Origin: Eledone cirrhosa
Taxonomy: Eukaryota
Direction of reading: 5' to 3'
NCBI GenBank assembly: GCA_964016885.1
Contig: OZ024742.1
Span: 261,516,001-261,580,000, forward strand
Length of the DNA stretch: 64,000 nt
Under the pieces are notes generated by a model. The model did no database searches and had not been told where the DNA came from. It was given only the letters and a program-made list of their open reading frames with translations. The position numbers were made by a program, and so were the translations under genes. This document shows positions 56,292 to 56,926 of the stretch, piece by piece (the stretch's first letter is position 1; every line of letters begins with the position of its first letter).

Positions 56292-56416
56292 AGGGTAAAT
56301 ATTGATGCAATTCAATTCAAGCACTCAACGTACTTTTTCCACATAGGAGTGACGGAGTAAATATCGAATAAGGAAAAGCGAAGTAGTTTCAGATGTTCAA
56401 GTCCTTTAATAATAAT

Positions 56417-56490
56417 GCTGTGATATATATTTCAATGACGACACTGGCCACAGTGTTCTGTGTGCGAGTGTCGTGTCATCATCAGACAGC
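56417..56490 (-). ncRNA. Type I hammerhead ribozyme (inverted copy)
   Basis: Reverse-complement copy of 56637-56710. Its apical stem II pairs CACAG/CTGTG. Confidence 0.7.
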
Positions 56491-56636
56491 TTGTTACATA
56501 ATAAGGTTATGTTTCCGAGGCAATCCAAATTGAATCGACATGGGAACGGATGAAGTTCGTGCTTTTGGGTTTTTCATCCGTTCCCATGTCGATTCAATTT
56601 GGATTGCCTCGGAAACATAACCTTATTATGTAACAA

Positions 56637-56710
56637 GCTGTCTGATGATGACACGACACTCGCACACAGAACAGTGTGGTCAGTGTCGTCATTGAAATAT
56701 ATATCACAGC
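56637..56710 (+). ncRNA. Type I hammerhead ribozyme
   Basis: GCTGT (stem I), CTGATGA (56642-56648), stem II TGACACGACACT...AGTGTCGTCA, TT, GAAA (56694-56697), TATATA, TC (56704-56705), ACAGC (stem I'). All core residues are present; the base of stem II is non-canonical. Confidence 0.72.
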
Positions 56711-56760
56711 ATTATTACTAAAGGACTTGAACATCAGAAACTACTTCGCTTTTCCTTATT

Positions 56761-56926
56761 CTCTCTCTCTCTATATATATATGTGTGTGTGTGTGTGTGT
56801 GTGTGTGTGTGTGTGTGTGTGTGTGTGTGTGTGTGTGTGTGTGTGTGTGTGTGTGTGTGTGTGTGTGTGTGTGTGTTTGTGTGTGTGTGTAACTTTTTTA
56901 TTTTTTTTTTTTTTTTTTTTTTTTTT
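56761..56926. repeat. (CT)n-(TA)n-(TG)n-polyT compound microsatellite
   Basis: Directly visible. Confidence 0.95.

What the first reader, a model, noticed from the sequence alone, without database searches (positions are those of the whole stretch)
56292..56761. Foldback element 2: two complete hammerhead ribozymes on opposite strands
Seen: 189-bp arms with 4 mismatches. Each encodes stem I GCTGT/ACAGC (extendable, with an internal loop, to CCTT/AAGG), CTGATGA, a long ~45-nt stem II, GAAA, palindromic ATATATAT and a UC site. Established: hammerheads with a short palindromic stem III self-cleave as dimers, as described for Penelope-like elements and retrozymes. The long stem II and the TT before GAAA are atypical for minimal PLE hammerheads. 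Transcription from either direction gives a ~190-bp dsRNA hairpin (a potential ADAR or Dicer substrate) competing with the ribozyme fold. This is the best candidate here for an undescribed ribozyme-bearing mobile element family.
Basis: partly seen in the sequence, partly recalled or inferred. Interest (0 to 1): 0.75.

Follow-up and report, generated by a model that had tools for sequence, protein, structure and literature searches.

The report
Twin-primed Penelope-type hammerhead retrozyme stub
This mirror-image repeat is a very short copy of a 1.3-kb protein-free element with at least 900 copies of its predicted self-cutting RNA motif in the genome; it was likely pasted in by a Penelope-type retrotransposon enzyme copying the RNA onto both ends of a DNA break, which makes it a new member of a known kind, not a new kind.

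Summary
In detail: 189-bp arms, 4 mismatches, one type I hammerhead (HHR) per strand. It is not a stand-alone foldback element. It is a stub of a 1,304-nt non-coding tandem unit (900 exact copies of a 29-nt HHR piece) inserted in (TA)n. All 40 insertions with both ends at the two fixed sites, of 87 examined, have one long and one short end 74-78 nt apart; close inverted pairs all point outward (17 vs 0). This is the Penelope-like (PLE) tail signature. Seven copies fold at the same natural 13-bp hairpin; in three the loop-bearing arm is the shorter, which excludes snap-back and favours twin priming. HHR stems covary across paralogous families; the 'TT before GAAA' is a U.U/G.U stem base, with precedent. 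Two insertions are chimeras with Hydra-clade PLE ORFs, the likely helpers; no homologous parent was found. The two HHRs of this copy cannot pair up, and read-through RNA buries both. Cleavage, circles and expression are untested. Opposite-strand HHR pairs are in print (2014), and this scan has noted the same footprint for other families in this and other genomes.

The parts
56292..56589 (-). Long arm, element sense: hairpin, HHR, short-end site, tail; ends at the long (outer) start site next to (TA)n
   Evidence: Matches monomer positions 1270-1304 and 1-264 at 97-99%
56573..56761 (+). Short arm, element sense: HHR, ends at the short start site (monomer position 189)
   Evidence: 98% to the monomer
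56292..56365 (-). 74-nt tail present on one arm only (PLE-type tail between the two inferred RT start sites)
   Evidence: 40 of 40 two-ended insertions have it on exactly one side
56323..56358 (-). Bulged stem motif in the tail (ACTC-CG ... CG-TT-GAGT), shared with autonomous Hydra-clade PLEs; candidate RT-binding element (inferred)
   Evidence: 7 of 7 families with a tail carry it 51-65 nt after the HHR cut; motif defined by eye from these sequences
56637..56710 (+). Type I hammerhead motif; predicted cut after C56705
56417..56490 (-). Mirror type I hammerhead motif; predicted cut after 56422 on the minus strand
   Evidence: mirror of the + copy
56542..56585 (.). Natural 13-bp hairpin of the element (18-nt loop) at which the two arms were joined
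   Evidence: Present in ordinary copies and, with another loop, in the sister family; same junction in 7 loci
56163..56291 (.). (TA)n target, long-end side
   Evidence: long ends are followed by (TA)n
56762..56781 (.). (TC)5 then (TA)5 at the short end; the TC run was likely added at priming
   Evidence: 16 of 56 short ends carry TC repeats, none of the long ends listed

Best explanation
This is a minimal insertion of a 1,304-nt non-coding, hammerhead-bearing tandem element (a non-LTR retrozyme, likely a non-autonomous passenger of Hydra-clade Penelope-like retrotransposons), whose mirror shape likely arose when both strands of a cut (TA)n site primed reverse transcription at two fixed sites on the RNA and the two cDNAs were joined at a natural hairpin. 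Shown: family, unit length, no ORF, (TA)n target, the two fixed ends used one per side, outward orientation, recurrence of this junction, HHR core conservation and stem covariation, chimeras with Hydra ORFs. Inferred: that a Hydra RT/GIY-YIG protein does the copying, that the tail stem is its binding site, that the cDNA 3' ends annealed through the hairpin arms, that the HHR cleaves as a dimer in tandem transcripts. The template was uncut or re-ligated at the HHR site, since arms run through it. This copy is likely inert: its HHRs lie on opposite strands and any read-through RNA would fold into a 189-bp duplex.
For: Family and unit: 900 exact 29-mers; array of more than 5 units. Longest stop-free frame 77 aa. 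Ends: 40 of 40 two-ended insertions are long+short, of 87; 17 outward vs 0 inward pairs among the first 100 hits on C1; the same two ends in independent public contigs (table 7). Junction: 7 exact copies; the loop-bearing arm is the shorter in L088, L090, L093, which a snap-back cannot make; 14 of 53 other inversion junctions overlap by 4 nt or more against 2% expected (BLAST extension inflates this). Segments of one insertion differ at 7-8% of diagnostic sites against 41% between insertions. HHR: 11 of 15 pairs with double changes over 9 rows, 0 of 500 shuffles reach the covariation score; arm 1 of 189 polymorphic sites vs body 54 of 870, p=4e-4, in loci picked on another segment. Helper: L084 and L153 join this element to Hydra-clade ORF pieces with 3-nt overlaps; L236 does so for the sister family; RWK, DKT and CxCX5C motifs fit the Hydra definition (vs PMC8557442 section 11). 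A PLE protein nicks and extends both strands and starts at two sites that bound the tail (PMC11167929).
Against: No autonomous element with a homologous terminal repeat was found among four Hydra families tested; a local alignment of the tail with Hydra-1 scored below shuffles (733 of 1000 as high). Chimeras could also be nested insertions with deletion. 47 of 87 insertions had an end that was cut by the locus edge, truncated or at another position. The isolated HHR folds 4.6-5.8 kcal/mol in favour of a form with the core paired, lacks G10.1-C11.1, and has no Rfam hit; conservation of the HHR alone is not significant (1 of 74 vs 54 of 870, p=0.12). Only 1 of 165 inner ends falls at the predicted cut. 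In the retrozyme preprint 8 of 9 predicted dimers did not cleave. The tail (74-78 nt) is longer than the 30-40 bp described.
Confidence: 0.8

Rival explanations
1. Same family, but this copy arose by snap-back: one cDNA folded on the hairpin and copied itself.
For: The junction is exactly at a 13-bp hairpin, and in the window the loop-bearing arm is the longer one.
Against: In 3 of 7 copies with this junction the loop-bearing arm is shorter than the other; the second arm stops at the family's fixed short site, as in insertions without any hairpin junction.
Confidence: 0.08
2. The element is the decayed terminal repeat and UTR of an autonomous PLE not yet found; the 1.3-kb unit is a deletion derivative and the HHR is a relic that no longer cuts.
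For: Related HHRs sit in the terminal repeats of autonomous Hydra families; the sister family has the canonical G-C stem II base, this family U.U, and 94 of 149 copies lose one more pair; misfolding is favoured.
Against: Core and stems are kept across families 74-89% alike; the family multiplies as tandem units of its own; searches saturate on the top 40 hits, so a parent is not excluded. This rival changes origin and activity, not the insertion mechanism.
Confidence: 0.25
3. A foldback or MITE-like DNA transposon with long terminal inverted repeats.
For: Long inverted arms, TA flanks.
Against: Ends always unequal (40 of 40), inversion points scattered over the whole unit, tandem runs longer than one unit in 19 of 87 insertions, chimeras with RT ORFs.
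Confidence: 0.02
4. A selected double-ribozyme switch or dsRNA source at this locus.
For: Read-through gives a stable 189-bp duplex (about -340 kcal/mol); the same junction recurs 7 times.
Against: The four mismatches are private, as expected from drift (about 1% per arm; mean arm-to-arm difference 1.9% in 42 insertions); recurrence is explained by the longest inverted microhomology seen; no sign of a host gene here.
Confidence: 0.04

Closest known systems
Metazoan non-LTR retrozymes (Cervera and de la Pena 2020, PMC7229834, passages read; Li, Clavereau and Pollet 2026, 10.64898/2026.07.22.740005, parts 1-3 of 5 read)
   Same: Non-coding, GC 38%, type I HHR in every unit, head-to-tail arrays, weak palindromic stem III, U.U at the stem II base as in HHR_Amex2, proposed PLE helper.
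   Different: Unit 1,304 nt against 150-450 nt and 51-972 nt (the 2026 pipeline capped the period at 1,000); mostly dispersed two-armed inverted insertions with fixed ends; 45-nt stem II; cleavage and circles not shown here.
Hydra-clade and other EN+ Penelope-like elements (Craig et al. 2021, PMC8557442, section 11 and passages read)
   Same: Partial tandems, inverted 5' copy, tail on one end only, (TA)n targeting, HHR in the terminal repeat.
   Different: No RT/EN ORF; tail 74-78 nt instead of 30-40; no DNA homology to the four Hydra families tested beyond the HHR layout and a short tail motif.
PAc Poseidon element in vitro (Frangieh et al. 2024, PMC11167929, parts 1-2 of 4 read)
   Same: Both strands primed, two internal RT start sites bounding the tail, uncut RNA as template.
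   Different: In vitro no strand difference in start site was seen; here each two-ended insertion uses one site per side (40 of 40).
PLE minimal HHRs (Cervera and de la Pena 2014, PMC4209133, passages read)
   Same: Dual HHRs 100-700 bp apart on opposite strands, large helix II, palindromic helix III, low activity needing dimers.
   Different: Here a full 8-nt palindromic stem III, a C.C internal mismatch at the fourth stem II position in most related families, and a non-autonomous carrier.

Membership tests
Type I hammerhead ribozyme | Core CUGANGA, GAAA, UH | tested here: met
   0 of 13 core sites polymorphic, 1.25% non-major letters
Type I hammerhead ribozyme | Three helices supported by covariation | tested here: met
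   (11 of 15 pairs with double changes; stem III pairs never vary in that set); other palindromes in other families
Type I hammerhead ribozyme | G10.1-C11.1 pair | tested here: not met
   U.U here; G-C in the sister family; U.U has precedent
Type I hammerhead ribozyme | Rfam model match | tested here: not met
Type I hammerhead ribozyme | Self-cleavage; loop 1-loop 2 contact | not testable with these tools
   needs RNA in vitro
Non-LTR retrozyme | Tandem units each with a type I HHR | tested here: met
   L124 with more than 5 units; 19 of 87 insertions exceed one unit
Non-LTR retrozyme | No protein coding, GC below 50% | tested here: met
Non-LTR retrozyme | Unit of a few hundred nt (reported range, not a definition) | tested here: not met
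   1,304 nt
Non-LTR retrozyme | Expressed as linear and circular RNA | not testable with these tools
   no RNA holder listed
EN+ PLE insertion signature | Partial tandem, inverted copy, one-sided tail, microsatellite target | tested here: met
Autonomous PLE | RT plus GIY-YIG ORF | tested here: not met
   ORFs occur only in chimeric or neighbouring Hydra pieces
Non-autonomous derivative of a named PLE | Terminal repeat homologous to an autonomous family | tested here: inconclusive
   none among four Hydra families; shared HHR layout and tail motif; other families not sampled
Foldback / TIR DNA transposon | Equal inverted termini, fixed ends and interior | tested here: not met

The most novel reading that the evidence does not exclude
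A 1.3-kb ribozyme RNA, larger than any animal retrozyme in the papers read, is copied by a dimeric Hydra-clade enzyme that grips a conserved bulged stem in the tail and must start one strand on each side of it; the same complex can carry helper and passenger RNAs into one site. That would name the helper clade and the cis signal for animal retrozyme mobility, and explain PLE inverted ends by an obligatory two-site twin priming.
Probability: 0.35. Interest if true: 0.65.

Novelty: new member of a known kind. Interest (0 to 1): 0.43.

Why it matters
How animal retrozymes move, and how PLEs make inverted ends with a one-sided tail, are open questions with mostly indirect support. This family gives a strict end rule, a natural experiment (the hairpin junctions) that separates twin priming from snap-back, chimeras that point to Hydra-clade helpers with intact ORFs in the same genome, and a small candidate recognition stem. 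All can be tested with the published PAc-type assay. The locus itself is an ordinary, probably silent copy.

Tried and rejected
Rfam scans: no hammerhead hit. Pfam and PDB sequence searches with the Hydra-1 ORF: nothing significant; 188 relatives at E<=1e-30, best rows 33-44% identity, nearly all unnamed, so the clade call rests on motifs. Sequencing runs: no RNA holder listed; three contig sets laid, used only for the end positions. Tail homology to Hydra-1 by local alignment: not significant; my first by-eye match of the long ends was wrong, Hydra-1's one observed long end lies about 110 nt past its short end. Parent search: Hydra-1, -2, -3 and -6 share no terminal repeat with the monomer. 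Family-wide A-to-G excess: none (187 vs 246 T-to-C, p=0.44). Inner ends at the HHR cut: none in excess (1 of 165). One RNA circle as the universal template: not supported; tandem units in L124 run A-B-C-B-C with 5-7% between types, although several other insertions have near-identical units. ARAGORN finds no tRNA in the SINE. Lunse et al. 2017 on dimeric PLE HHRs was not held and was not read; supplements of the cited papers were not read and may list long-stem HHRs or Hydra HHRs like these. Five literature searches found no description of this family or of twin priming in PLEs ('twin priming' 0 occurrences in the 4 papers listed).

Full report
Observation. The arms (56366-56554, 56573-56761; 189 nt, 4 mismatches, 18-nt spacer) and both hammerhead motifs are as described. 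The left arm continues 74 nt to 56292 and then (TA)n; the right arm stops at 56761 before (TC)5(TA)5. Rfam has no hammerhead match.

Family. The arm has 46 scored matches at 97-100% among 1,178 candidates in the 3.0-Gb own genome and 900 exact copies of a 29-nt HHR piece. Mapping loci on one complete unit (L016:1501-2804) shows a 1,304-nt circularly permuted monomer, GC 38%, longest stop-free frame 77 aa. It forms head-to-tail runs: 19 of 87 insertions exceed one unit and one holds more than five. The window copy keeps only positions 1270-264 on the minus strand and 1-189 on the plus strand. An older sister family is 74-89% alike over the arm and tail. Loci came from top-scoring or first-listed hits, so they lean to young, intact copies.

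Insertion signature. Outer ends fall at two sites: position 189 (short) and 264-272 (long), 56 and about 131 nt after the predicted cut, both next to (TA)n; public contigs from another data set show the same two loose ends. Of 87 insertions, 40 had both outer ends at these sites and all 40 were one long, one short; the other 47 had an end cut by the locus edge, truncated or elsewhere. Among the first 100 hits on C1, close opposite-strand pairs were 17 outward, 0 inward. This is the partial-tandem, inverted-copy, one-sided-tail pattern of PLEs (PMC8557442), and the tail is known to lie between two RT start sites of an enzyme that nicks and extends both strands (PMC11167929).

Why the foldback. 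The centre is a hairpin of the element itself. Seven genomic copies have this exact junction. In L088, L090 and L093 the arm that carries the loop is the shorter one; a cDNA that snaps back cannot make a copy longer than itself, so two primings joined through the hairpin arms are the better reading. Other inversion junctions are spread over the unit, 14 of 53 with 4 or more overlapping bases against 2% expected (inflated by BLAST extension). Parts of one insertion come from one subfamily (7-8% vs 41% differences at diagnostic sites) but not always from one molecule.

The ribozyme. In loci picked on another segment the arm has 1 of 189 polymorphic sites against 54 of 870 in the body (p=4e-4); the HHR alone is 1 of 74 (p=0.12). 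A descriptor found many HHR families with palindromic stem III in the fetched loci and 0, 0, 1 hits in shuffles. Nine rows from related families give 11 of 15 pairs with double changes, above all 500 shuffles and all slid controls (related rows inflate this). They fix the register: three pairs, a C.C mismatch, then a helix; here U.U, G.U, A.A or U-A (94 vs 55 copies); the sister family has G-C at the base. So the TT is not a bulge. A U.U base occurs in axolotl HHR_Amex2, which cleaves weakly alone and better as a dimer. Against activity: the isolated motif prefers a fold with the core paired by 4.6-5.8 kcal/mol, 153 of 307 segments run through the cut site and only 1 of 165 inner ends lies at it. 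In a read-through RNA of this locus stem I does not form, and the two motifs are never on one strand. Close opposite-strand HHR pairs were already reported.

Helper. L084 and L153 are single insertions in which this element is joined, with 3-nt overlaps, to ORF pieces of two RT-GIY-YIG families 34% alike; L236 joins the sister family to a third, with one outer end from each. The first has an intact ORF with RWK, DKT and CxCX5C, the marks of the (TA)n-targeting Hydra clade. Hydra-1, -2 and -3 end about 50 nt after their own HHR cut (counted by eye), Hydra-2's stem II base matches this family's layout, and 7 of 7 families with a tail share a bulged stem 51-65 nt after the cut (motif chosen by eye, so the shuffle counts of 0-3 in 2,000 flatter it; no tailed Hydra-2 copy was found). 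No family tested has a homologous terminal repeat, so the helper clade is likely, the partner family unknown.

Editing. No family-wide A-to-G excess. One segment (C2:218170563-218170886) has 9 A-to-G among 11 changes (about 8e-6 after correction for 307 segments), which likely records ADAR action on an RNA template.

Verdict. A real, young, apparently undescribed family, filed as a new, unusually long member of the non-LTR retrozymes or non-autonomous PLE passengers. It works like a PLE insertion; it is not an autonomous PLE and not a foldback DNA transposon. I reached this reading before calling the scan's notes, which report the same footprint for 310-495-nt families here and in other genomes (nothing by sequence); they are unchecked notes and not support.

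Noticed in passing
window 52901-53101 (tail to about 53185): The other foldback in the window is the same kind of thing from another HHR family (stem III ATGCGCAT), folded inside stem II, with a one-sided tail that carries the same bulged stem.
   Followed up: partly
monomer position 139-156; L006, L021, L031, L035, L039, L044, L049, L052, L054, L059, L107, L108, L110, L111, L115: A 185-nt SINE with A- and B-box-like motifs and an (ATT)n tail sits 6 nt after the HHR cut in 15 of 143 arms, with different duplication lengths, so repeated independent insertions at one hot spot. In L008 and L095 an arm begins at the SINE, as if a SINE-headed RNA had been copied by the PLE route.
   Followed up: partly
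window 56762-56771; 16 of 56 short ends: (TC)n between the short end and (TA)n, never seen at long ends: likely repeated copying of the first template bases by a telomerase-related RT.
   Followed up: partly
L019, G000:C2:218170563-218170886: Cluster of 9 A-to-G changes of 11, likely a recorded ADAR-edited template.
   Followed up: partly
L081:2414-4729; L085: Young Hydra-clade PLE with an intact ORF and an HHR whose stem II is about 90 nt; at least five Hydra-like families are present.
   Followed up: partly
L124, G000:C1:130886500-130893900: Array of variant units A-B-C-B-C (5-7% apart; B-B 0.16%, C-C 0.49%): dimeric template or later duplication.
   Followed up: partly
monomer position 255: G/A often differs between inner and terminal copies of one insertion while other sites agree; unexplained.
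   Followed up: no
window 1-49100: 49-kb satellite of 33/24-nt units, open in Thr-rich and Asn/Ser-rich frames with many frame changes.
   Followed up: no
window 53769-55430 +: 554-codon open frame, 5'-truncated non-LTR RT of L1/Tx1 look (recalled resemblance, not searched).
   Followed up: no
L067:about 430-760; L216-L224 (C2:231.65-231.73 Mb): Another foldback with a minimal HHR; and a local cluster of nine copies of a short-stem-II relative with the same stem I.
   Followed up: no
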